Part shown: one piece after another, positions 1-42,013 of the stretch
Numbering within the stretch: the first letter of the stretch is position 1
Layout of the letters: each line of letters opens with the position of its first letter
Assembly (NCBI GenBank): GCA_036785375.1
Contig: JAWMAR010000044.1
Coordinates: 3,224,001-3,288,000 of the forward strand
From: Leucoraja ocellata
Lineage: Eukaryota
Reading direction: 5' to 3'
DNA length: 64,000 nucleotides
Notes under the pieces: generated by a model
Databases searched by the model: none
The model's input: the letters and a program-made list of their open reading frames with translations, nothing else
Told to the model about the DNA's origin: nothing
Position numbers and translations under genes: made by a program

Positions 1-111
1 GATAGATCTGACGCTTGCAGATCGAATGGATCGTCTGCAGATTCACTGGAAACTGACAAACCCACAACAGAACCTCAGCGGGTCAGGCAGCTCCGGGGAA
101 AGGGAAAAGAT

Positions 112-139
112 GACGTTTCGGGCCGAGACCCATCTTCAG
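112..139 (-). ncRNA. Minimal hammerhead ribozyme core in a Penelope-derived element
   Basis: Minus strand CTGAAGA-T-GGGTC-TC-GGCCC-GAAA-CG-TC: CUGANGA and GAAA boxes, stem II, palindromic ACGU helix III and a GUC site. Stem I is weak. Confidence 0.55.
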
Positions 140-1074
140 ACCCAAAATGTCACCTATTCCTTTTCTCAAGAGATGCTGCCTAATTCGCTGAGTTACTCCA
201 GCACTTTGTGTCTATCTTCGGTGTAAACCTGCATCTGCAATTCCTTCCTAAACAACAGAACCTGTTGCCTCAACATAAAGCTCTTCCCAAGTCCTCTTTG
301 TTTTGCTGTGACATTACTTCACTTAATTCCTTGCCCAGCACAGAGTTTTCAATTGGCTATCTTTACCACAGTGACCTTTCTGACAAAATGAATCCATCTT
401 TGTTTAGGTTAACATTCTGTGATTGATGTAAGTGTTGATTTATCTATAGTTGAGCATCCACCAATGTTTATCTCAAACTAGCCACCAGGAAGTACAAGGA
501 AAACCCGTTGATCGGTGGCTTTCCTGAGTTTTCTTCCCAATCTTTGGAGAAACATTTCAACTGCACCATCATTCTCTGATCAATATCTAAATGTGCAGTG
601 AACTGCAGAGATTGATTCACGTAAGACAGAAAAAAAAGGAACGAATAGAAAGAATATTTCCATGGCACTCTATCCAATCTTAGGATGACCCGAAGCAGTT
701 CACAGCCAGAGAAACATTTACACACATAGGATTTCACGATAAACGAATGTGACAATCTCCTTTAGTGATTTTAGGTAGATAAACATTTATATTAGATTAG
801 TGAGAAGAAACAAGGAACTGCAGATGCCAGAATCATCTGCAAAACATACAATACTGGAGTAATGCAGCAGTCAGACGGCTTCCCTGGAGAACTTGGATAA
901 GTAACGTTTTGGGTCAGGACCCTTCCTCAGACTGAAGAACGATCCCAACCCGAAATGGGTCCCAAGCAGACACTTCTTCAGACTGAAAAAAGTCTCCTGA
1001 TCTGAAATACCACCTTTCTATGTTCCCCAGAAATACTGCCTGACCTGCTGAGTTACTCCAGCATTTTGTGTTAA

Positions 1075-2060
1075 TATTAGATTAGACCAGTTAATTGTTG
1101 TGTACAACAGGGTGTAGTGACATTCCTTGTTCACAAGAAGCTTACAGAGTAAACAATATCCATACAGTAATGATAATTACAATCATAAATGTTACTATGA
1201 ATGCAAAAGAACAGAATAATGTAGGATTGTAGTGTAACACAAAGTGGAAAAATATTAAAGTACGATAATCGAACAACTGACTGAGGTAAAGTTAAGTGTA
1301 AGAGTATATGGTAGCATCTCCGGGAAGGAGGTATTTAGTTCAGGAGTCGGATAGCAATGGGGAAGAAGGTGTTCTTATGTGTGGACATCCAAGCATGCAA
1401 GCTCCTGTATCTTCTTTAAGAAAGTAGAGGAGAGAAAAAGGAATGGTATGGGTGGCAGGCATCTTTGACCATATCTTCAACCTTCCTGATGTAAATCACT
1501 GCGTAGATGGACTGGATGGGAAGAAATGATGAGCTTAAGTGATCAACTAGGCTATGTTCACCACTCTTGGCACGTTTAGGTAGTCGAGAGGACAGTTGGT
1601 GCCATGCCAGGATAAGTTGCATCTCATCAGAATCCTTTCCATTGCACATCATTAGAAATATGAGAGAATCCTCGAAGTACTGTCGAATCTTCTCAGAAGC
1701 CAAGGAAAGTAAATGCGCTGATGATCTTTCTTGTTCGCCACATCAATGTGAAAGGAACAGATTAGGTTGCTGGTGACATGGATGCCTCCGCACCAGTATT
1801 GAGGGATAGGGTGGAGAAAACGTTTATAACCAACACTAACCAACTGAGGTCTGCAAGTCAGGAAGTTCAGAAGCCAGTTGCAGAGTCAAGCCAAGGCCCA
1901 GAGTTTTAGGAATGAGCTTATTAGGCATTATGGTGTTGAAGGCTGTTATAGTCAATGAATAGCATTCTTTCATATTGTCAAGGTAATCCAGGGCTGAATG
2001 TAGTGCAAGGAGATGGTGTCTTCTATAGACCAATTTTTCCTTTATGCAAACTAGGTAAGA
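1075..2060 (-). mobile_element. Degenerate Rex1/Babar-like LINE 3' fragment
   Basis: AFNTIMPNKLIPK (RT motif, ORF 1836..2033) and a decayed C-terminal region. Confidence 0.6.
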
Positions 2061-2143
2061 CTCTTACTTGTCTTTCACTTCTGTTGCCTCAAAGTCTGTG
2101 CCTTTGACCCCCTCAGCACTGCACTGGAGTGTCAAACCCAGAT

Positions 2144-2175
<32 letters not shown>

Positions 2176-2250
2176 CTGGTCGACTGATCAGTTGATCGGT
2201 TGATCGATTGATCGGTTGATCGATTGGTCGATTGATCGGTTGGTCGATTA
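2144..2250. repeat. (GATT)n microsatellite decaying to GATC/GGTC/GGTT units
   Basis: Direct reading; adjoins a partial V-SINE at about 2247-2419. Confidence 0.9.
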
Positions 2251-3539
2251 ACCTGCAAATCCATACGTTTTTGGGATGTGGGAGGAAACCGCAGTAACCG
2301 GAGGAAACCAAACAGTCACAGAGAGCTCATGTGAACTTCATGCAGACAGCACCCGGGGTCAGGATCCAACCTGGGTCTTCAGAGCAATGTGAGACAGCTG
2401 CTCTACCAGCTGAACCACATACTTACTGATCCAGGCTTAAGAGCGCTATCAGTACCAAGGATATTACTTGAGGAAGTAGAGAAAGTATCTTGAAATTAAA
2501 ACAGAAAAGAATAACTATTATTTTAGGTTGTCCACCCCAAATTCTTGGTGAACAATGGCTGATATGTCCCCCCATTCACAAGACGGGGGAATGATCTGCT
2601 CCCATCGCTGTGTTGTCAGTGAGTGCTAACTGACCTGAAGAAGAAGAAGTAGGTCAACTAGTTCAATGTCTACAATTTATCAGAATCAGGACTGACACTT
2701 TCTCAGCTTATAAATTCTGTCTGATTTCATGAGGTTTCATATTCAGCCTCCACAGCTGGTCAATATTATAGACAATAGTCATACCTAACCACTTCCTCTC
2801 AACAGTTTTATAACGACATTCAATAAACTTCTATGACAGAATTTCTTTGTTATTAGTTTATGTTAAGGTCTGGATTTTGGATTCCACGTTCTTGACATAT
2901 TTTACATAGCAGGGAGTCAGATTTTCTTTCGCCTTCTTTTCAGTTTAGCAATTGTGAGAAAGTACAATGTTGTCCCTGTTTCCGCTCCTGTTGAATGAGC
3001 CTTATTCTTGTCTAAAAAATTTATATTTTACAAATGATTGCCAAATTGTCTGCTGTACTGGATTATGGACCTAACATGTGAATGAAGCCCCTGGACCCCT
3101 TTGATGAAAACGATACATCTCAAAGGTAGCAGGACATATGGAACAGCTTTGGAGCTACAAGTGCTGGCTGTGTTGTACTTTTAGAAAGCTTGCACGTTTG
3201 AATCTGAAGCCATCGTTTCACGAGCACTTCTGACAAGCCGGGCTAGAAGTAGTTTCAAAGGGGGAAAAAATGTTTTCTTTAATTCTGCGTAACATCTCCA
3301 GCTTCTGACTCATAAAGCCTTAACTGCAGCAATAGAAAATTTGCAAGGAATCTGCCAGCTCTTATTTTCAATATTATAAAAATAAACTGCTAGAAACAAA
3401 ATGCTGGAGTAACACAGCGGGTCAGGCAGCATCTCTGGAGAAAATGAATAGGTGACTTTTCGGGTTGTGACACTTATTCGGCATTTATTTTCCTTTGCTT
3501 TCGTTTGTTTAGTTTAGCTTAGTTAAGATTTAATTCAGT

Positions 3540-3757
3540 TGCGTTTTAGTTGAGTTTTAGTTTAGTTTAATTTAGTTTAGTTTAGTTTAGTTTAGTTTCG
3601 TGATACAGTGCAGGAACAGGCTCTTCAGCTTACCGAGTCCGCACTGACCAGCGATCATCTTCGACTAGCACTATCCTACACACTAGGGAAAATTTATAAT
3701 TTTCATCAGCCAATTACTGTACAAGCCTCTACGTCTTTGGATTGTGGAAGGAAATGG
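3540..3757 (-). mobile_element. V-SINE (HE1-like) 3' portion with long (TAAAC)n tail
   Basis: (tttag)n array at about 3505-3597 followed by SINE tail and body, truncated at aggaaa. Confidence 0.8.
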
Positions 3758-3887
3758 ATCAGATGCATCAACCACTTTAACAAGAATAGTTACTTCACTG
3801 AGATTTTTGAGCCATGAATTAAGGGTATCTGGCAGGAAAGTGGAGTTCAAGCTAAGGATCGTTGGCCATTGATGTTCAATTCCTACT

Positions 3888-4178
3888 TTTTTAGTTTAGT
3901 TTAGAGATACAGTGTGGAAACAGGCCCTTCAGCCCACTGACCAGCGATCCCCACACATTAACAGTATATGAAGCCTACTAACCTACAAACCTGTATGTAT
4001 TTTGGAATGTGGGAAGAAACCGATGCAGTCACAGGGAGAACGTGCAAACACCATACAGACAGCACCCGTACTCAGGATCTAACCCATGTCTCTTGCACTT
4101 CTTCTTCTTGCGTTTGAGGTCTGCATGTCTCTTGCACTGCAAGGCAGCAACTCTACCACGGCGCCACGATGCTGTCCT
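3888..4178 (-). mobile_element. V-SINE (HE1-like)
   Basis: tRNA-like head, V-domain (GTTCTCCCTGTGAC) and LINE-derived tail. Confidence 0.8.
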
Positions 4179-4584
4179 GGCGAATCTTCATTCTGAAGTC
4201 AACACCAACATTTTTGCTTCACCATCTGTTGTCTTTGAAGTAACTTACATATAAAAAAACGAACTAATTTTCAGAACCTTTATATCAACATCTTGATGTA
4301 GGTTTAATCTGTTGGTCAAAACGTTCTGCCTAATAAAATAAAATTTAGACATGTTATACCATATTATGTGGACAAATTAAGCCACTCTGATTAGTGTAGA
4401 CTCCCTTGTTAAATTATGACATTTCATGCAGATTTTACAATATCAAGTGCACTGTGATAAACCTGGTCCATAAGGGAGCAAGCAAGCCAGCATCACTCAC
4501 ACCTATGCCCTGTGGTATTTGATCTTTCCTCCCTAGAAATGGTGTAACTATTTGCATTCCTAAAACTCTTTGATAAAAGTAAAG

Positions 4585-4875
4585 TGTAGGAAGGAACTAC
4601 GTATGCTAGTTTAAGCCGAAAGTAGACACAAAAAACTGGAGTAACAGAGGGCCAGGCAACATCTCTGGAGAGAAGGAATGGGTGACGCTTCAGGCCGAGA
4701 CCCTTCTTCAGACTCTGTGTCTCCCTCTCCCTTGACTCTCAGTCTGAAAAAGGGTCTCGACCGGAAATGTTACCCATTCCTTCTATCCAGAGATGCTGCC
4801 TGTCCCGCTGAGTTACTCCAGCATTTTGTGCCAATCTTTGGTGGAAACCAGCATCTGCAGTTCCTTCGTATACAT
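4585..4875. mobile_element. Palindromic Penelope-derived short element (head-to-head terminal repeats)
   Basis: tgtaggaaggaact...ctggagtaac...ccttcttcagact, then a spacer, then agtctgaaaaaggg...gttactccagc...agttccttcgtataca. Related whole or half copies at about 50-255, 800-1072, 3390-3480, 5320-5507, 7000-7095, 7900-8035, 12910-13000, 16080-16475, 18413-18625, 26970-27250, 27590-27710, 29320-29445, 42185-42270, 44090-44185, 46124-46252, 53835-53940 and 60730-60850. Confidence 0.75.
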
Positions 4876-6055
4876 ACCAAGACACCCAAGTGTTGTACAC
4901 TGGTGTTTGCTGAATGGAAGCCATTTAGATGCCTTGAAACCAGTACAGGCATTTCTCAATTTAATTGCAAATGTTCAGAGCTACAAACTTGAGTTTGAAC
5001 TAATTGTATCTCTATGGCATATCTGATCTGTTTGGATAGGATGCAATACAAAGCTTTCCACGGTATAGATACAAGAATAAACCCAGTGACAGAGCAGTAA
5101 CGTTACTGCAGCGCCAGAGACAGTTCGATCCTGATTATGGGTGCTGATCTCTCATCAGTCACAATTCTCCCCACTCTATTTTATCTTCGTCATGTGCATA
5201 AAAGGACACAGTTGATTTTGGGATCCATCGCAATTTAATCTGCATGTCATTCAAAATGCCCCAGTATGAGGATTACCACGCCTCTAAGACATCATGGCAG
5301 CCATGAGAATTAATACTAAAGACAAACGCAAAAAGCTGGAGTAACTCAGTGGGCCAGGCAGCCTCTGTGGAGAAAAGGAATAGGTGACGTTTTGGGTTGA
5401 GACCCGTCACCTATTCCTTTTCTCCAGAGATACTGCCTGACCCACTGAGTTAATCCAGCTTTTTTGCGTTTGTCTTCGGTTTAAACCAGCATCTACAGTT
5501 CCTCCCTGGACAGAATTAATACTAAGCTGGATCTTATTAATATATGTGAATATGGTGAGGGCTTGATGGACATTAGCCTGCACTGAACATTGTAGCATTG
5601 GCACTTGAAACAATACCAAATAACGTGGAAAGATCATGATGGATCTTCTGAAATGTTCAAGGCCAACATCATACTTGCCGGGTGGGGTAGGGCATCAAGT
5701 GCAATTACTGTGACAGAGGAAACATTTCTAAAGGAGTTGAAATGAATCATCATGGAAGGTGGCCACTGTCCTAAGCAAATGTTTAACATGGATGGAGTCC
5801 GGCTCTTTTGGATGTGGATGTCTTCATGTGCATTCATTCTAAGGGGTGAGAAAACTGTTCCAGGCTTCAAGTTTGCCCACGGCTGCCTTACAATTCTCCT
5901 TTTAGACAAAGCTGATAGTAGCTGTAGGTTTTAGTTTTCGTTAAAGCCGCAAACTTTAATCAACCACTCAGAGAAACTAAGGACATTCAAAGGCCAATTT
6001 CTAAGTGGTGCGCTGGTCTAAGAAATCAGTTTGGGTAAAAGTTTCATTTTTGGTT

Positions 6056-6354
6056 CACTTAGATTAGAGATACAGCATGGAAACAGGCTCTTCAGCCCCA
6101 CTGAGCCTGCACTGACCACCATCACCCGTACACACTAGTTCTAATCTACACAGTAGGGAGAGTTTACAGAAGCCAATTAATCTATGAACCTGCACGTCTT
6201 TGGATTTTGGAGGAATCTGGAGCACCCGGAGAAAACCCACATAATCACAGGGTGAAAGGACAAACTGCAGACAGACAGCATACGTAGTCAGGATCGAACC
6301 CGGGTCACCTGCGCTGTAAGACAGCAATTTTACCTTTGTGCCACTGTGCCGCCC
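6056..6354 (-). mobile_element. V-SINE (HE1-like), full length
   Basis: GGGCGGCACAGTGGCACA head, B box GGTTCGATCC, V-domain, gcctgtttccatgctgtatctctaa tail. Confidence 0.88.
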
Positions 6355-6609
6355 TTTAAAGGTAATGCTCTTTCAACATTACATCACATTGTTTCTCTTC
6401 ACCCTTCTTTAAATGATATTGTGCAAGGATCAACCTGGACTAGAAGACTTGTCCATCTTCTGCATTCTTGCTAAATATGCCCATCAACAACCAGGCAATA
6501 TGTTTTCTCCTGAACACCACCTCCCTTTATTGTTAAAACCCACAGAAATAATCTCTGCATTCAAGGCTATCTACCAGCAGTGCAAGTTGAGGTATATCAT
6601 TTGGTATTG

Positions 6610-8780
6610 ATTTAGTGAAGATACAGTGAAAAACATTGTTTGTGTGCTATCCAGTCAAATCATACACATGTAAATCATACACACACGTGTACACATGTAA
6701 AACAGATAGTGCAAACAGAAAAATAGCAGAGTGCAGGATGTAGTATTGCAACATTATAGCCTTTAAAGCTATTGAGAAAATACAATTTTTTTAAAGTTCG
6801 ACGGCTACAATGAGGTGGGTTGGGAGATTGAGACTTCACTCTTTTTAGTTTACAAGAGGAATGTTCATTAGCTTGATAATAGCGGAGAATAAGCTGTTTC
6901 TGAATCTGATGGTAGGTGTGTCCAAGCTTTTGAACATCAATAACTGAGGAGACGGAAAAGAGGGCATGAAAGGGTTGTGATAATCTTTGATTATATTGAG
7001 TAAAACGCAAAGTGCTGGAGGAACTCAGCGGTTCAAGAAGCATCTATGGAGGGGATGGATAATTGGCGTGTCGGGTTAGGACTCTTCTTCAGAAAACATC
7101 AACATGAAGGGCAAATGGATTTGATGGGGAGAGGGTGGTTTGAGTGGTGGACTGGGCTACATCTACAGCTCTCGGCAACTTCTTGCAACCTTGGGCAGAA
7201 CTGTTGGCAAAACTAGTTGTGATATTTTCTGATAGGATAGCTTCTATGATGCACCTGTAGAAGTTGGTAAGAGTCATTGAAGATGTGCCAAACTTCCTTA
7301 GTCTTCTGAGGAAGTAGACAGACATTGGAGTGCTTTCATGGCAATAGTGTCAATTTGGTTGGACCAGGAGAAATTGTTGGCGATATTTACTCTTGACCAT
7401 CGGCACCGCAGATGCTGACTGGGGGGGGGGTTACATGACCTAATTTCCTGGTCAATAACTATGTACTTTGTCTACCTGGTATTGAGGGAGAGATTGTTGT
7501 CTTGTCACTATGTTACTAAGCTAGTATTCTGTCCCGAATTGTACGAGATCCAACCCACTATGGTGGTGTCATTGGCGAACTTGTAAATGGAGTTAGAGCA
7601 GAGTTTTACTGCACAGTCGAGAGTACGTAAGGAATAGAGTAAGAGGCTGAGAAAGCACTCTAGTGGGGCACCAGTATTAAGATTTATTATGGAGGATTTT
7701 TTATTGCTTGTCGTCACTGATTATGGTCTACAAGTCAGGAAGTTGAGGATCAAAAACAGAGGTCCGGGGGTGGGGGGGGGGGGGGGATTGCTGACTCGAT
7801 GTCCTCATTATCTCCATGTTCCGCCGATACATATAGGGCCAGGGAGATGGCATCTGATGTGGATTGTTTGGACAGTAGGCAATCTGCAGTGGATCAAGGC
7901 TGTATAGAAAGGAACTGCAGATGCTGGTTTAATCCAAGGATAAATATAAAGTGGCGGAATAACTGAGCGTGTCAGGCAGCATCTCTGGAGAACAAGGATG
8001 GGTAACATTTCAAGTCGGGACCCTTTTTCAGACAAGGATGAATGAATGAATGAATGAATGAATGATTGAATGATTGAATGATTGAATGATTGAATGAATG
8101 AATGAATGAGCAAGTTGATACTTAATGTCACATGTACCAAGGGTGCCTAGATACAATTAAAAGCTCTGTTTTGCATATGACAAAGTTACAAAAGCACCGA
8201 TCAGTCCTATCTACTGCCTGCCGCCGCATGTGGCAGAAGGGCCCCCTTTACCCCTTCCCTCCCCCCACGCCGTGTCCCTCCGCCGGGTCCCTCCGCCATG
8301 TTCCTCCGCCGGGTCCCTCTGCCGGGTCCCTCCATTGCTCTGACTGGTCAACCTCGTACTTAGTCCCTCCTCGCTCTCGGTGGCGCTGTTTTTGTTGACA
8401 CCGGTGGATCAGGGCTGATTCTGAGCCCACGGCGGGCGAACCGGACCTACCGGGCGGCTCCTCGAACGCGGATATGCGGTGGGCAATTCCTCTACCAATG
8501 TCGGTCTGCAGCGGGTGAGTCGGGCCTGCTTGCCGGGAGCTGCCATGGAGGCTGGAGTTAATGTGCATCATGACTGCTCTGAGCACTTCATGATGGTGGA
8601 TGTTAGCGCCACTGGATAGTCGACATTGAAGTACGCTACCTTGATTTTCTTTGGCACTGGGATGATAGTGGTCCTCTTAACGCTGGTGGTAACCTCAGTA
8701 TGGAGCAGGAAGAGGCTAAGGATGTCAGTGAATACTTCTGCCAGCTGGTCTGTGCAGATTCTGAGGATGTAGCCAGGGGT
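6610..8780 (-). mobile_element. Nested Rex1/Babar-like LINE fragments with inserted Penelope-derived pieces, (GAAT)n and a GC-rich tail
   Basis: YFLRRLRKFGTSSMTLTNFYRCIIEAILS (7089..7325); LNTGAPLECFLSLLLYSL...IYKFANDTTIVG (RT, 7508..7717); upstream RT sequence at 8560-8780. Confidence 0.8.
8036..8109. repeat. (GAAT)n/(GATT) microsatellite
   Basis: Direct reading. Confidence 0.9.
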
Positions 8781-9039
8781 TTAGTAGCTTCTATAAGTTG
8801 TCCCTAGTGTGTCGGATAGAACTGGTGTGTGCGGGTGATCATTGGTCAGTGTGGACTCAGTGGGCTGAAGGGCCTGGTTCCACGTTGTACCTCTAAAAAT
8901 ACTAAGATCTGAGACGTATGAAGTCGTGGAACTGCCTCTGCCAATTAGTCTTTTTCAAGACCTATTCAACAACTCTGAACAACTAAAATTAGGATCATAC
9001 TGATTCATACTGGGAAGGTTTACATTGCTATAGTGTCTT

Positions 9040-9170
9040 TACTGTCCCTTGCAGATTGTCTACAAGAACTTCCCATGAAGGACTTTGATAGTGACATTGC
9101 TTCTGTAATGCAAGAAATACTGCAGCCAATTTGCCACCAGCAAGTTCCCACAAACAAAAATGCAACAGCA
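9040..9170. mobile_element. Ancient DeuSINE (SacSINE-like) core remnant
   Basis: tagtgacattgcttctgtaatgcaagaaatactgcagccaatttgccaccagcaagttcccacaaac resembles the recalled Deu-domain. Confidence 0.5.
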
Positions 9171-9888
9171 ACACAAGGCAATGGTTATAATCCCAACAAT
9201 GACTTGCCAACCAAATAAGAACCTAATGCTAGGATACTCCCCAATGTGTGAAAACGATAATTAGGGTGTCCATTTAAATCAAAGGATATATTTTTCATTT
9301 CAAAAATGTATGTTGCAAAGATGTCACAACAGATGGAAATCAAAGTGAACTTTCAATGGATTTGAATGGAAGTAATAACTCACGACTTAATCAACTTGAT
9401 GCCACACTGATCCTCTTAAAGAAAGTGTTGCAAGATTTCCCATGATTCTTTCAGCACAAATCTACTTGACAATTGCTGATTAAACGATGGATTATTGATT
9501 TGTTTTAGCCAAAATTTATTGACACATCCACCAAAAGAGGTTTCACTTCATTACTATAGATTTATGATGACTTGCCAGCATAAAGACAAATTTCTAACAC
9601 TTAATTTTTTTTGGAACTAAATGAGTATACCTCTGTTGAAATATTGTGTGTGGAGATGTATCGTCCAATGTTAAAATATTCCAGAATGGAAAGCTATGAA
9701 TCAAAAGACACGAATTGGGGTGATGCCTCAAAATTAATTTAGGGGCTGCAAAATGCAGATGCATCAACCACTTTAACAAGAATAGTTACTTCACTGAGAC
9801 TTTTGAACCATGAATTAAGGGGATCTGGCAGGAAAGTGGAGTTCAAGCTAAGGATCAAGTTGGCCATTGATGTTCAATTCCTACTTTT

Positions 9889-10219
9889 TTAGGTGAGTTT
9901 AGAGACACGGTGCGGAAACAGGCCCTTCGGTCCACCATGTCCGCACCAACCAGCGATCCCCACACATTAACACTATCCTAGACACATTAGGGACATTTAT
10001 TTACACTTATACTAGGATTTGTAATAAGTCTATTAATCTGCAAATCTGAATGTGTTTTGGAATGTGGGAAGAAACCGAAGATCTCGGAGGAATCCCATGC
10101 GGTCACGGGGAGAACGTACAAACTCCGTAGACAGCACCCGTAGTCGGGATCGAACCGGGGTCTCTGGCGCTGCATGTGCTGTAAGGCAACAACTCTACCG
10201 TTGTGCCACTGTGCCACCC
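9889..10219 (-). mobile_element. V-SINE (HE1-like), full length
   Basis: A box TGGCACAACGGT, B box GGTTCGATCC, V-domain, tail. Confidence 0.88.
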
Positions 10220-10920
10220 TTGTTTCTGATGTTCTTAAGTGTGGAATATTTTCAGATGTTTTCTTGACATTTAATACATGCAAATTTCATTTCTACCATT
10301 TTTCCCATTGGGGAAACAACTTACAATTTATGAGAAATTGTCTCCTAAAATCTAAATAGATAGCTCTTCTTTTGCAAGCAAGTCAGACAAAATGGATGAA
10401 CGGCCTACTTCCTTGAAGAAGCCCCTTGCTTATTCCTGCCCCTATGATTTACTGATCAATACACACACTCTGTTTGTCCCATTCCAATCTGTACTGGTGG
10501 GATGATTTTCAAAAACTATATACGATTGGAGACTGGAATGGAGATGCGGAATAGTACACATAATAGAACTGCTGCCTCACAGCTCCAATGACACAGATTT
10601 GATCCTGACCGCCTTTGCTATCTATGTGGAGTTTGACTGTTTTCCCTGTGATTATTTAGATTTCCTCCCAAATCCCTAAATATCACTATTATAATTTTAT
10701 CTAATGTGTAGGTGAATGGCAGAATCTGAGGGGAAATTAATGGGAGTGTGATGATAAAAATGTGATTAATGTAAATTAAAGACTCAGTGCCTGTTTCTGT
10801 GATTCATAATATTTTTCTGAACTAATAATCATAATGCTGTGCCAAATAAATATTATATAATTGTGAATATAATTAACTGTGTATTAATTAATAATGGCAC
10901 TATATTCATATAATGCTTAT

Positions 10921-11235
10921 GGGTGATACAATGGCAGTGTTGCTGCCACTTAGCACCAGAGGCCTGGCTTCAATTCTGACCTCGAGTGCTGTCTGCATGG
11001 GGTTTGCACGTTTTCTTCCCGTGACCACGTGGGTTTCCTTCAGGTGCTCCGGTTTCCTCCCACATCCCACAGACAGTAGGTTTGTAGGTTAAATGGCCTC
11101 AGTAAATTGACCCAAGTGTGGATGAGAAGGTGGATAACATAGTACTAGTGTGAATGGGTGATCGATGGTTGGCATGGATTCGGTGGGCCAAAGAAACTGT
11201 TTCCATGCTGTATCTCCAAATTAAACCAAACTAAA
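10921..11235 (+). mobile_element. V-SINE (HE1-like)
   Basis: gtgggtttccttcaggtgctccggtttcctcccaca core and aaactaaa tail. Confidence 0.85.
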
Positions 11236-11803
11236 TGCCCCTGAATGGAATTGAAATATCCTGCCCCTAATGCCATCAACTGATTACATAAAAGCAACTG
11301 AACAAGTTGTTTTTTACTTGTAAAATATTATATTAACAATTCTTCATGTGACATTGATTGTGACTGACACAATTATGTGGAATGAGTAAGTATAATATTT
11401 GCATTAAAATGTGATCTGGATATTATATCTGGACCACCAGAAAATATTCCAAAAATAAGAAATTTGCCTACTGCTCCTGTTAGAATACATTTACAAAAGG
11501 AATGAGAATGCAGATCTAGTGCAGATTACATTTGGCATAATCCTCATGAAAGGCTGATCAGAAGTGCTTTGCTTGAGCTAGGATCTCTTATTGAACAATT
11601 TTTTGATCGATGGGCAAATTAGCTTTAATGGTTTTAATCATTTGAAATAAGTCTAATGCAGATGTCAGCTGATGCCGGGTGCTTTGGCTGCAGAGACTAA
11701 AGTTTAAAAAAAAAACAGCTCGGAGTTTTATGTGGAAGCCCCCACAAGGCAGAGCGTTTGTGCTTAGCACCTTCCTCCAGCCCAAAGCCCACAGCAGCAC
11801 AGT

Positions 11804-12097
11804 CGGCAGCACGGTGGCACAGTGGTAGAGTTGCTGCCTTACAGCGCCAGACACCCGGGTTCAATCCTGACTACGGGTGTTGTCGGAACGGAGATGGGAC
11901 AGCAGGGGTTTTCTACGGATGTTCTGATTTTCTCCCACATCCCAAAGACGTGCGGGTTTGTAGGTTAATTGGCTTCTGTAAATTGTCCCTAGAGTGTAGG
12001 ATAGAACTAATGTTTGGCGTAATCATTGGTCGACACGGATTCGGTGGGCCGAAGGGCCTGTTGACACGCTGTATCTCTGAGCTAAACTAAACTAAAC
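11804..12097 (+). mobile_element. V-SINE (HE1-like), full length
   Basis: ggcagcacggtggcacagtggtagag...gggttcaatcc...gggccgaagggcctg...ctaaactaaactaaa. Confidence 0.88.
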
Positions 12098-13966
12098 ACC
12101 AAGGCCTGACAGTTTCGTAGTCAAACCTCTTTGCTCATCTATCAGTGGCCTCCAGCGTATTTGCCAGTTGCAAAGGATGGGAATCCAGCACCTCCTCGAC
12201 CCAGTAGGGACCATCCAGGAACAGTACATTATAGGGCACAGCAGAGTATCTATGTATTCAATTGGACGTTGTATTCATCAGATTTATATCTCGCACCTTA
12301 CTGTTGTTTATTAGGGTGTTTACAGAGTTCTATGTTTGCATATCTGTTATTCTGCTGCAAGTAACAATTTCATTGTTCCATTTTGGGACAGAAACACATC
12401 CTTGAATCTTGACTCTCTTCACTTGAGGCAGGACAATGTGTGGCAGGTAATAGGTGGACACAGGCAAGCGGGGGATTTGATGGGCAAATGGTGAGAACAA
12501 AGGCCGGAGGTCAAAACAGGTGTGAGACAGACCGGTTGAAGAGTCGTGAATTGTGAGGCCAGAGGAAGGAATGCAGGAGGACACCATAAGAATTGCCATT
12601 CAGCCCATCGAGTCTTCTCCGCCATTCAATCATGACTGATCTATTTTCCCCTCTCAACCCCCTCAAAGGTTACCTTAAATTGTAGAATTCAATGTTCATG
12701 ACCTGACGTCCTGATCATGTTGAACCCACCTCTGGATATCCTTTAGCTTTTTGTCGACCTTTATGCATTCATCCATCCTACATGGCCGCTTCATGGTCCC
12801 AACTCTTTCCCACGAGTTTACCCTCCAAATACCCCCAACCTTTTTATATCTTCATATTTTTCAACCTCCCTTCCATCACTGTTATATCTTTCCAACTGCG
12901 ATTCTTGAAGCATGAGGCTGGAGTAACTCAGCGTGTCAGACAACATCTCTGGAGAAAGGAAATAGGTGATGTTTCAGGTCAAGATCCCTTCTTCAGACTC
13001 CTATTGACTGCTATTCTTGAAATGGTTGTCCTCTGCTTGGAACCTTCCTTTGTCAGTGACAACTTTGGAAGAGCTTAAATCAGGCAGGGTGTAACACACA
13101 CTACTCATTCACCAGCCCCAGACTTTCATGACCACCCAAGATTAAATTCGCCCTGTTGTGAGATTGGCAGAAATCAAAAATGCATTTCTTGGGACGTGAG
13201 GAGAAAATCCTAAGTTCTGTCTTGTTGTCCCTTATTACATTATTACATTTTTTTTTAATCTATATTGAGCAATAAGATAAATCATTGTCTCCTTGAAATT
13301 AACCCGAAACTCACCCCAAATAATGTTTCACCATCCGTGGACTTAATCAGGTTTCACTTTTCAAGTTATTTAAATTCTGTACAAATGGCTACAAATCATC
13401 TCATGCAGCAGCTTGTGATAGTTTTGACATTAATCAGCGTCTGTCTAGTGCCAAAATAAAGATTAATTTAAACTAACACCTATGGCCATTTAATATTGTG
13501 TTACATTTTTGAAAAAAAAAACAGGTCGGGAATAATTTACTTAAACAGCAAAATTTGCTGTAATTTTCAACAAATCAGTCAAATCACATTTTTTTATATA
13601 ATTTTCTCATACCTCACCTGTTTTTCAAACATATATGACAAAGTCAATGCTTGCAAATGTTGTGAGAGTGCAGTGTCTAATTTTGCGGTGCATTCCATGT
13701 AAAGATGACAGATACTGCAAAAACAGATGCCTCTCTGTTCTCTTTACCCCTGTGACTGACTCATCTTACCGGGCCCACCTTTCACCTGGAAGGTAGAGCA
13801 GTGCAAATGTAAGTTCATCCCTCACCTGAAGGAACAGGGAGGCTTCTACCCAGGAATTCATTAGAGCCTCCTTGGTTTGGGGTTTTATTGCCAGGAAGCA
13901 GCAGTAGTCTGACCCTGACCACATTCCTCCTCATCGAGTTGAAGTAGTAATTAATAGTAGCACTAT

Positions 13967-14360
13967 TAGAGAGTCATAAAGTCATACAGTGTGGAATCAA
14001 GCCCTTCGGTACAACTTGCCCGCTCCGACCAACATTGCCCCACCTGCCTGCGTTTGGCCCAAATCCCTCCTTTCAACCTATCCTTTCAATGTACCTGTCC
14101 AAATATTTATGTTGTGATAGTACCTGCCTCAACACTCTCCTCCAGTACCTCATTCCATGTACCTACCACCCTTTGGGTAATAAGATTGTCCCTCAGGTTC
14201 CTATTAAATCTTTTTCCCTCTCACCGTAAACCTCTTTGGTTCTCGATCCCCCCGACTGTGCAGTTACACTACCTATTCCTCTCATAATCATCCATCTCCA
14301 TAAGATCAGCCCTCATTCTCCTGCACCCCAACACATAGTGTTCTAGCCTGCTCTCCCTAT
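13967..14360 (-). mobile_element. CR1/HER1 LINE 3' fragment
   Basis: CR1 3' UTR and C-terminal ORF2 remnant (gtacatggaatgag...gagagtgttgaggcaggtac on the minus strand). Confidence 0.75.
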
Positions 14361-40217: not shown

Positions 40218-40428
40218 TTTCACTGTTTGTCTCCCCTGTGCAGGCAGACGGGGCTGGGACTGGATGTACAGTGGCCCGGGTCAGTGCCATCGTGGCACCC
40301 AGCGTACGTTGATCGGTGACTACGTGCCCTCCTTTCCCATGGCCACGCACAGTGGGATAACAATCATATCTGGACTGGCTGCCATTAGCCTCCTGGAAAC
40401 ACACAATGTGCGTGTGAAATTGAACTAA

Positions 40429-42013
40429 TATGGCAGGCAAATAAGCAAGCCGCGCGTGGTGAATCAACGAGATCTTTATTGGTGAAGTAAAGAGAACAAC
40501 ACACGCGAATGGGGGAAGGCTGACCCGGGGCTCAATACTTATACTAGAGCACACCCCTAAACCTGATGATAACTCCTTCCCCCCATTACCCAGTAACATG
40601 ACCCTATCCCCAACTGCCGAGGGTTCACATAGTAAGTGGCCTACCCACCGAGTGGCGCCACAGGACCCCCCCCCCCCGCCAGAACCGGAGGCATGAAAGC
40701 GAAAGGGTAGGCGAACGAGGCATTGATCCCGCACATCCACTAACAGAGACTAGGCCCAGAGGAAATCTGCGCCCAGCAACGGCTGGGAAACCATCAACCA
40801 CCGTAAAGGTCGAGGTAAAATGGCATGGGCCAAAGATGAGCACGATCGTGCGAACTCCAAACGTCCATATGGACCTGCCGTTGACTGCAGTCAGCGAAGG
40901 ACCCCACTTGCCATAACGAGTGTCCACCCCCGACAGGGGTAAAGCGCTAACCTCCGCGCCCGAGTCCTTAGTGTCGATCCCACACGCGTAGAGGCGATTT
41001 TTCAGGCTGACCACCGCAGTGACTACTGGTGGCCGGCCCTGGCATTTTCCGGATACAAGCAGGGCGGGCGGCACAGACGGGCTGCGGGACCCGAGCGCTG
41101 GTGGTAGTAACATCACTTCCCCTTACCAGGGTCATTCAGGACTGGCGACGCAGCTGAACTCCCAGTGGACATAGGGCCTGGTCTCTGGGCCCTCCAGCCG
41201 ATACCCGATCAATCGAGTCACCACCCTGCCGCTTGGCTTGCCACAGCTCGTCCGCCGCTAACAGTAGGAGGCCTGCGAAATCCTCACCGGAGAGCAGTAG
41301 GCGAATGTCGTCCGACATCGACTCCAAAAAGGTGTGCTCGAAAACCAGGCAGGGCCGACGCCCATCCATGAGGGTGAGCATCTCACTCATGAGCTCCAAC
41401 AGCTTGCGATCGCCGAGGCCGCCCATACGTATGAGCCGTGCTGTGCGGTCCGTCCGGGCAGCTGAGCGCAAAGGTCTGCTAGAGCAGCGCTTTAAGGCCC
41501 TCATATTTGTCCTGATCCGGTGGCGCACGCCGGTAAGGGATCAGGCGACCGGCCGTTTCCTGATCCAACGCGCCGACCACATAGTAGTACCGCGTGTCGT
41601 TGGCTGTTATGCGTCGAACGTGGAACTGGGCTGCGATGTCCAGAACACGGGCAACTTCAGGGAGACAAAATTCTGCTGGGCCGGATTTTCAGCGACCTCG
41701 GGCTGTTGAGGTTGATAGTTGACTGCGTCCATGATTTAAATCCAAAATGACTGTTTTGGATCGTCGGGGTCACCAATATGGCGGGCGAATAAGCAAGCCA
41801 TGTGTGGTGAATCAAAGAGATCTTTATTGTTGAAGTAAAGAGAACAACACACACGCGAATGGGGGAAGGTTGACCCGGGGCTCAATACTTATACCAGGGC
41901 ACACCCTTATACCTCATGACGACTCCTTCCCAGTCATTACCCAGTCGTGTGACCCTACCACCGACTGCCGAGGGTTCGCATAATAAGTGGCCTACCCACT
42001 GGGTGGAGCCACA
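40429..42013 (-). mobile_element. Gypsy-type LTR retrotransposon, internally deleted (gag and protease remnants only)
   Basis: LTRs at 41777-42013 and 40429-40662 (about 87% identical by eye), CTAA TSD at 40425-28 and 42014-17, PBS TGGTGACCCCGACG, G-rich PPT next to the 3' LTR. Gag motifs VSLKLPVFW, RYYYVVGALDQETA, LGDRKLLELMSEML; protease motifs DSGAEVS and LTAVNG. Confidence 0.92.
41762..41775 (-). other. Primer-binding site complementary to tRNA-Trp
   Basis: Plus-strand cgtcggggtcacca equals the 3' end of vertebrate tRNA-Trp including CCA, and lies just inside the 5' LTR. Confidence 0.85.

What the first reader, a model, noticed from the sequence alone, without database searches (positions are those of the whole stretch)
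3540..10219. SINE 3' transduction ending at a Pol III terminator and fused onto another SINE tail
Seen: about 135 bp (cagatgcatcaaccactttaacaag...cctacttttttag) plus the adjacent minus-strand V-SINE occur twice, at about 3760-4178 and 9756-10219. The two SINE bodies share non-consensus variants (ccagcgatccccacacattaaca; ttttggaatgtgggaagaaaccga), while their 5' flanks differ. In the 9.8-kb copy, the first TTTT on the SINE's strand lies at 9750-9753, exactly where the shared sequence stops (source caaaatgcagatg, copy ggaaatggatcagatg). The 3.8-kb copy is joined there to the tail-bearing 3' half of another SINE whose 5' half is missing. Known: Pol III terminates at T4 or longer, CR1/L2-type reverse transcriptases need the 3' tail, and U6/L1 chimeras join a Pol III RNA 3' end to a retroposing tail. 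Inference: a read-through SINE transcript was captured by template switching or RNA ligation and inserted 6 kb from its source. This would be a SINE-SINE chimera route for moving flanking DNA.
Basis: partly seen in the sequence, partly recalled or inferred. Interest (0 to 1): 0.7.

Follow-up and report, generated by a model that had tools for sequence, protein, structure and literature searches.

The report
Local DNA patch inside old SINE
A short stretch of DNA, made of unique sequence plus half of a repeat element, was copied from 6 kb away into what is likely an older repeat of the same family, most likely by ordinary DNA break repair rather than by a new RNA-based jumping route.

Summary
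The duplication is real and local. The 132-bp flank has 4 genome hits: the two window copies and their twins in an inverted 98% segmental duplication. A 28-mer private to both SINE bodies has the same 4 hits. But only the tail half of the 3.8-kb SINE descends from the 9.8-kb copy. Its head carries 17 private changes in 110 sites against 3 in 125 for its tail half. It scores as the older subfamily of the 'head-less' SINE at 3590-3755 and resumes 22 consensus bases after that SINE stops. Best reading: one old SINE was split by a 267-bp patch (3756-4022) templated from 9751-10077, likely by homology-started, microhomology-ended repair (0.68). The first downstream TTTT does sit at the junction (chance 2-12%), but most family copies carry an internal TTTT, and a 6-kb hop favours DNA. 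The junction is present in relatives 5-7% diverged; no empty site was found.

The parts
3505..3755 (-). SINE X: degenerate tail repeat and tail-side half (consensus columns 2-163) of an older-subfamily (M1) copy; the inferred recipient
   Evidence: HMM hit 3590-3755; class log-likelihood M1 -99.8 vs Y -111.3, 28/154 from M1 consensus; left edge of the tail repeat read by eye
3751..3759 (.). Left junction: X ends GGAAA, donor reads CAAAATG; 3-nt AAA microhomology plus 3 extra bases
   Evidence: bridged by contigs of organisms C and D (X10 record 1, X11 record 9)
3760..3891 (.). Copied unique flank (132 bp)
3892..4022 (-). Copied tail half of the donor SINE (young subfamily Y, columns 2-166) with 11-bp and about 46-bp internal deletions
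4023..4178 (-). SINE head (columns 186-297) after a 19-bp gap; inferred to be the original head of SINE X
   Evidence: 17/110 private changes, M1/M2-like score, 16/111 from M1 consensus
4085..4138 (.). 24-bp insertion between 15-bp direct repeats inside that head
9750..9753 (-). First TTTT downstream of donor SINE B, at the end of the copied tract
9756..9891 (.). Donor flank
9892..10219 (-). Donor SINE B, full length, young subfamily, A-box and B-box motifs intact; the copied part ends at 10077
1..14006 (.). End of an inverted segmental duplication (about 98%, at least 74 kb) that carries twins of both loci

Best explanation
The 267 bp at 3756-4022 were copied from the locus 6 kb away and likely inserted into one pre-existing older SINE by DNA break repair. 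Inferred steps: a break in SINE X near column 165-185; the head-side end invades the nearby same-strand SINE B through family homology, 19 bp out of register at the near-repeat AAACC; synthesis runs through B's tail, slipping twice, and 135 bp into unique flank; the new strand is then joined to X's tail half at a 3-nt microhomology. Shown: donor identity, mosaic structure, junction sequences, and an age older than the split from relatives 5-7% diverged. Inferred: that the head is X's own, the polarity of invasion, and that the template was DNA.
For: Flank and private 28-mer occur only at these loci and their twins (control 194 hits). Private changes are uneven across the 19-bp gap: copy 3/125 tail vs 17/110 head, donor 11/125 vs 5/110, Fisher p 0.0017, non-CpG 0.03; conservative combined p 0.016. 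Copy tail scores Y (-39.7 vs M1 -48.0); its head scores M1/M2 (-58.3/-57.9 vs Y -62.2); X scores M1; 31 of 70 M1 but 4 of 40 Y copies have so M1-like a head. X (28/154) and the head (16/111) are equally decayed (p 0.50) and match the M1 median of 0.16. The 19-bp gap is rare (11 exact hits, 2 of them this locus and its twin) and sits where X stops. Base rates: 20 of 35 cases of a half-SINE with a same-strand piece 20-450 bp beyond are one SINE split by an insertion (hand count); 22 local duplicate alignments of otherwise unrepeated DNA were seen in 1.03 Mb. Homology-started, microhomology-ended conversion with template switches is described in PMC5104497 (abstract).
Against: No empty site was found, so an intact X was never seen. 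Total non-CpG distance between copy and donor is similar in head (10/84) and tail half (11/109), so distance alone does not separate them. A rare G at column 292 is shared by the copy and the donor's twin. The donor's 9-nt head insert could have been lost in the copy by one more slip. The donor's tail has 9/109 private non-CpG changes but its flank 1/132 (p 0.006); this needs a later flank conversion or uneven rates and is unexplained. The tract does end at the first TTTT (chance 0.02-0.045 for tract ranges of 200-500 bp, up to 0.05-0.125 with a 3-nt microhomology). Subfamily classes are my own and weakly separated in the head.
Confidence: 0.68

Rival explanations
1. Same split of SINE X, but the patch was reverse-transcribed from RNA: a Pol III read-through transcript of B ending in UUU paired with X's broken AAA end, cDNA ran through flank and tail, then annealed to X's head by homology (endonuclease-independent, class 2 templated insertion).
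For: The tract ends at the first TTTT; AAA:UUU pairing and polarity fit; B has intact A- and B-box motifs; class 2 templated insertions can be RNA-derived (PMC5110952, parts 1-2 of 4); slippage deletions suit a reverse transcriptase too.
Against: The donor is 6 kb away, whereas the experimental RNA-derived patches came from distant sites. An internal TTTT in 31 of 37 Y and 46 of 66 M1 copies shows T4 is read through in this family (inference). X's AAA end favours an A-run junction under DNA repair as well. No second case was found among 35 candidates inspected by eye, 1 of them tested by search.
Confidence: 0.13
2. One reading: a full read-through transcript of B was joined to another SINE's tail half by template switching or RNA ligation and retrotransposed as one unit to an empty site.
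For: TTTT at the junction; layout resembles U6/L1 chimeras (PMC6789731, abstract; PMC4859970, passages); head and tail non-CpG distances to B are similar.
Against: The head is older than the tail half and flank of the same copy and of X's class; X's truncation point and the 19-bp gap would coincide by chance; X is as decayed as a typical old copy; insertion 6 kb from the source in a 3.44-Gb genome; a survey of 118,489 AluY confirmed no Pol III SINE transduction (10.1101/2024.04.29.591526, first third read).
Confidence: 0.06
3. Multi-step DNA history: unequal crossover between X and B duplicated the 6 kb between them and made the B-tail/X-head hybrid, and a later deletion removed nearly all of one copy; or the flank plus the whole of B was copied long ago and patchy gene conversion then reshaped flank and head.
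For: A hybrid SINE is the expected crossover product; conversion would explain why the flank is more alike than the SINE tail and why three donor-flank alleles seen in relatives (two in C, D and G, one in C and G) are absent here.
Against: The deletion would have to start within about 20 bp of the crossover column in X; no remnant of a 6-kb duplicate is seen; more events are needed.
Confidence: 0.13

Closest known systems
Long-tract gene conversion with non-canonical, microhomology-mediated termination (PMC5104497; one-sided invasion, cited in PMC4888836)
   Same: Copying starts in homology, runs into non-homologous flank, ends at microhomology with added bases, and has internal template slips.
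   Different: Here the donor is an ectopic, diverged SINE 6 kb away rather than a reporter repeat on the sister; the tract is about 320 bp, not kilobases; the event is an old, fixed germline one.
Class 2 templated sequence insertions (PMC5110952)
   Same: Intact donor, patch of a few hundred bp, small target deletion, microhomology, no target-site duplication or poly(A).
   Different: Donor is local and one junction is homology-guided; described class 2 patches come from distant sites and are argued to be RNA-derived.
U6/L1 and U6/Alu chimeric retropseudogenes (PMC6789731, PMC4859970, PMC11838501)
   Same: A stretch ending at an oligo-U site abuts the 3' part of a retroposon.
   Different: The 5' part is not a full-length Pol III RNA of one age; single local copy, not a dispersed class.
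V-SINE HE1 of sharks and rays with partner LINE HER1 (table row in PMC3747384; assignment of this family to it is recalled, not tested)
   Same: tRNA-type A and B boxes, about 300 bp, simple-repeat tail, tail shared with longer repeats.

Membership tests
SINE 3' transduction / Pol III RNA-retroposon chimera | Flank is unique and traceable to one source element | tested here: met
   4 genome hits, two loci plus twins
SINE 3' transduction / Pol III RNA-retroposon chimera | Transduced tract ends at the first Pol III terminator | tested here: met
   9750-9753 is the first T4; chance 0.02-0.125; the family reads through an internal T4
SINE 3' transduction / Pol III RNA-retroposon chimera | Whole SINE, head included, descends from the source and has one age | tested here: not met
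   17/110 vs 3/125 private changes, M1/M2-like head; conservative p 0.016
SINE 3' transduction / Pol III RNA-retroposon chimera | Target-site duplication around the whole unit | tested here: inconclusive
   Longest match 4 nt, but the family itself shows no clear duplications (4 of 98 with 8 nt or more, null 0.023)
SINE 3' transduction / Pol III RNA-retroposon chimera | Empty orthologous site lacking the whole unit | tested here: inconclusive
   2 of 4 runs bridge the junction, none shows an empty site
SINE 3' transduction / Pol III RNA-retroposon chimera | Read-through or chimeric RNA exists | not tested
   Only DNA runs were sought and laid
Homology-started, microhomology-ended conversion (templated patch) | One junction inside shared homology, near register | tested here: met
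   Donor column 166 joins column 186 at the AAACC near-repeat
Homology-started, microhomology-ended conversion (templated patch) | Other junction in non-homologous flank with microhomology or added bases | tested here: met
   AAA microhomology plus 3 extra bases
Homology-started, microhomology-ended conversion (templated patch) | Donor left intact | tested here: met
   B full length with continuous single-locus left flank
Homology-started, microhomology-ended conversion (templated patch) | Recipient element pre-existed intact | tested here: inconclusive
   Inferred from class and decay; not seen in an outgroup
Homology-started, microhomology-ended conversion (templated patch) | Template was DNA | not testable with these tools
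   No intron, editing or poly(A) mark lies in the tract
V-SINE (HE1) | tRNA-type A and B boxes | tested here: met
   Motif match in B (motifs recalled)
V-SINE (HE1) | Conserved V-domain matching the published consensus | not tested
   The defining paper is not held

The most novel reading that the evidence does not exclude
A Pol III read-through SINE RNA, ending in oligo-U at its natural terminator, was primed by the AAA end of a broken neighbouring SINE and reverse-transcribed in place, so that SINE transcripts patch breaks in nearby family members and carry unique flank with them: a natural germline case of local RNA-templated repair and of the SINE flank transduction that an AluY survey could not confirm.
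Probability: 0.12. Interest if true: 0.6.

Novelty: new member of a known kind. Interest (0 to 1): 0.2.

Why it matters
As best read it is an ordinary but well-preserved example of repeats steering break repair and duplicating unique DNA locally. It is also a caution: such patches mimic SINE transductions and make hybrid SINEs that confuse subfamily dating. No coding sequence or known RNA family was recognised in it. It would matter more if many such patches ended at first T4 sites, which would point to RNA-templated repair by SINE transcripts.

Tried and rejected
Extended subfamily carrying the flank: rejected, 4 hits. Larger DNA duplication past 9750 or past the heads: rejected, neighbouring unique DNA has only the twin hit. 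Assembly artefact: rejected, junction bridged in two other organisms and contigs of organisms A and B stop at 9786-9787, as a repeated flank predicts. The copy's tail half coming from a deleted subfamily: 28 other loci with the 11-bp gap share neither the 46-bp gap nor the copy's other changes and have mixed heads, so the gap looks recurrent. Empty-site search by laying contigs: joint tables were swamped by family copies; X8 and X20 list no contig across the junction, which is no evidence of absence. Target-site duplications: uninformative. A second chimera candidate (L112) has a common dispersed repeat as its spacer; the other candidates were judged by eye only. Rfam: 14 matches, none at a gathering score. 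ORFs of 90 aa or more were listed but not searched against families. Earlier findings: none returned. The local-duplicate filter missed the present pair itself and did not check uniqueness genome-wide.
Full report
Names. X = SINE half at 3590-3755; A = SINE at 3892-4178; B = SINE at 9892-10219; A2 and B2 = their twins. Columns refer to a 298-position family profile built here, numbered from the tail.

Observation. The 132-bp flank and the following SINE are shared. A genome search with the flank gave 4 of 4 scored candidates: A, B and two twins in an inverted duplication of about 98% identity that ends at window 14006 and spans at least 74 kb. Unique DNA beside A and beside B has only the twin hit, so homology does stop at about 9751-9756. 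The twins let me drop recent changes: ancestral A and B flanks differ by 2 substitutions and one 2-bp gap.

The second is private: a 28-mer at columns 138-166 occurs only at A, A2, B, B2, against 194 hits for a relaxed control. I sampled 193 near-full copies from 1.03 Mb of window-side and arbitrary stretches plus 127 kb of targeted loci; copies under 230 columns were dropped, and the targeted loci enrich the young class. I classed them on tail-half marks only: O 24, M1 70, M2 59, Y 40. B is A's closest copy only at columns 138-166 (0 of 178 as close); over the whole tail half 7 of 175 are as close, in the head 16 of 173.

The mosaic. A has three gaps relative to B: 11 bp, about 46 bp and 19 bp. 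The last spans columns 167-185; X stops at column 163. On the tail side of that gap A has 3 private changes in 125 sites and B 11; on the head side A has 17 in 110 and B 5 (Fisher p 0.0017; non-CpG 0.03). Adding the flank, which I polarised by hand, gives 5/257 against 17/110 (p 3e-6), a figure inflated by CpG density and by 2-3 doubtful columns. The conservative version is non-CpG 4/241 against 6/82 (p 0.02) and CpG losses 1 of 6 against 7 of 10 (p 0.12), combined p 0.016. A's tail half scores as Y; its head scores as M1/M2; X scores as M1; B's head scores as Y/M2. X and A's head are equally decayed (28/154 and 16/111, p 0.50), at the M1 median (0.16), while B's head is 7/108. The simplest reading is that X and A's head are one old SINE split by a patch of 267 bp. 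Split SINEs are common here: 20 of 35 comparable layouts resume within 20 columns of where they stopped (hand count, three twin pairs included). Against this: non-CpG distance to B is about the same in head (10/84) and tail half (11/109); a rare base at column 292 is shared by A and B2; 4 of 40 Y copies have a head as M1-like as A's.

Age. Contigs of organisms C and D bridge the X-flank junction (X10 record 1, 3674-3916; X11 record 9, 3632-3860; 2 of 4 runs). These relatives differ from the window by 5-7% in adjacent unique DNA (12/228, 13/228, 11/148, 18/263). In C, D and G the two flank copies are separate contigs with their own changes; by my reading of table 3 they differ at 10 of 132 sites in C. 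The event is therefore older than that split, and no empty site was seen. One thing stays unexplained: B's tail has 9/109 private non-CpG changes but its flank only 1/132 in this genome (p 0.006). Two B-flank alleles shared by C, D and G and a third shared by C and G are absent here, which fits either a later A-to-B conversion of the flank in this lineage or changes on their common stem.

Junctions. Left: X ends GGAAA, the donor reads CAAAATG, and the copy has 3 extra bases after the shared AAATG. Right: B's GAAACCG joins the head at the near-repeat 19 bp further on. The 11-bp and 19-bp gaps recur elsewhere (91 and 11 exact hits) in copies of mixed classes, so they look like slippage products; three such gaps in one short tract suggest one error-prone synthesis (inference).

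DNA or RNA. For RNA: the tract ends at the first TTTT, and B has intact A- and B-box motifs. The chance of ending in that 9-base zone is 0.018-0.045 for tract ranges of 200-500 bp, and 0.053-0.125 if a 3-nt match to X's end is required; the feature was also noticed after the fact. Against RNA: 31 of 37 Y and 46 of 66 M1 copies carry a TTTT inside the body, so source transcripts evidently passed one; the donor lies 6 kb away in a 3.44-Gb genome, while local duplicates of otherwise unrepeated DNA are frequent (22 alignments in 1.03 Mb, 2 of 22 touching a SINE). No second flank-carrying chimera turned up.

Literature. PMC5104497 (abstract and outline) describes conversion that runs past homology and ends by microhomology or added bases, with template switches. 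PMC5110952 (parts 1-2 of 4) defines class 2 templated insertions and argues that they can be RNA-derived and come from distant sites. 10.1101/2024.04.29.591526 (first third) confirmed no AluY transduction among 118,489 copies, though it cites two isolated earlier reports. PMC6789731 (abstract and opening), PMC11838501 (abstract) and PMC4859970 (passages) cover U6/L1-type chimeras. PMC4888836 (passages) cites one-sided invasion. PMC3747384 (passages) lists HE1/HER1; filing this family under it is recalled, not tested. Searches listed no title or abstract opening on SINE-SINE read-through chimeras in fishes; most subscription papers are not held, and no supplements were read.

Verdict. Interest 0.2.

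Noticed in passing
window 1-14006 and G000:C44:2604870-2686000: Inverted segmental duplication of about 98% identity, at least 74 kb, on the same contig; its end at 14006 falls in a short piece resembling the SINE/LINE tail (13980-14037).
   Followed up: partly
window 4085-4138: 24-bp insertion between 15-bp direct repeats inside the SINE head, likely a tiny truncated retro-insertion.
   Followed up: no
window 40424-40662 and 41772-42013: Local 240-bp duplicate at 86% not repeated elsewhere in the 1.03-Mb sample; one of 22 such alignments.
   Followed up: no
family columns 179-182, e.g. absent in window 9892-10219: Most copies of this SINE family carry an internal TTTT on the transcribed strand; the oldest class mostly does not (5 of 21).
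   Followed up: partly
L160-L200: Recurrent 11-bp and 19-bp deletions between short repeats in unrelated SINE copies.
   Followed up: partly
L105:1443-2014 and L107:1021-1588: SINE split by a roughly 230-bp insert with an overlap of about 40 consensus columns; the same layout at two places on one contig.
   Followed up: no
window 3390-3479, 4578-4876, 5313-5508: Abundant palindromic repeat family with many copies in the window, giving only sub-threshold hairpin matches in Rfam.
   Followed up: no
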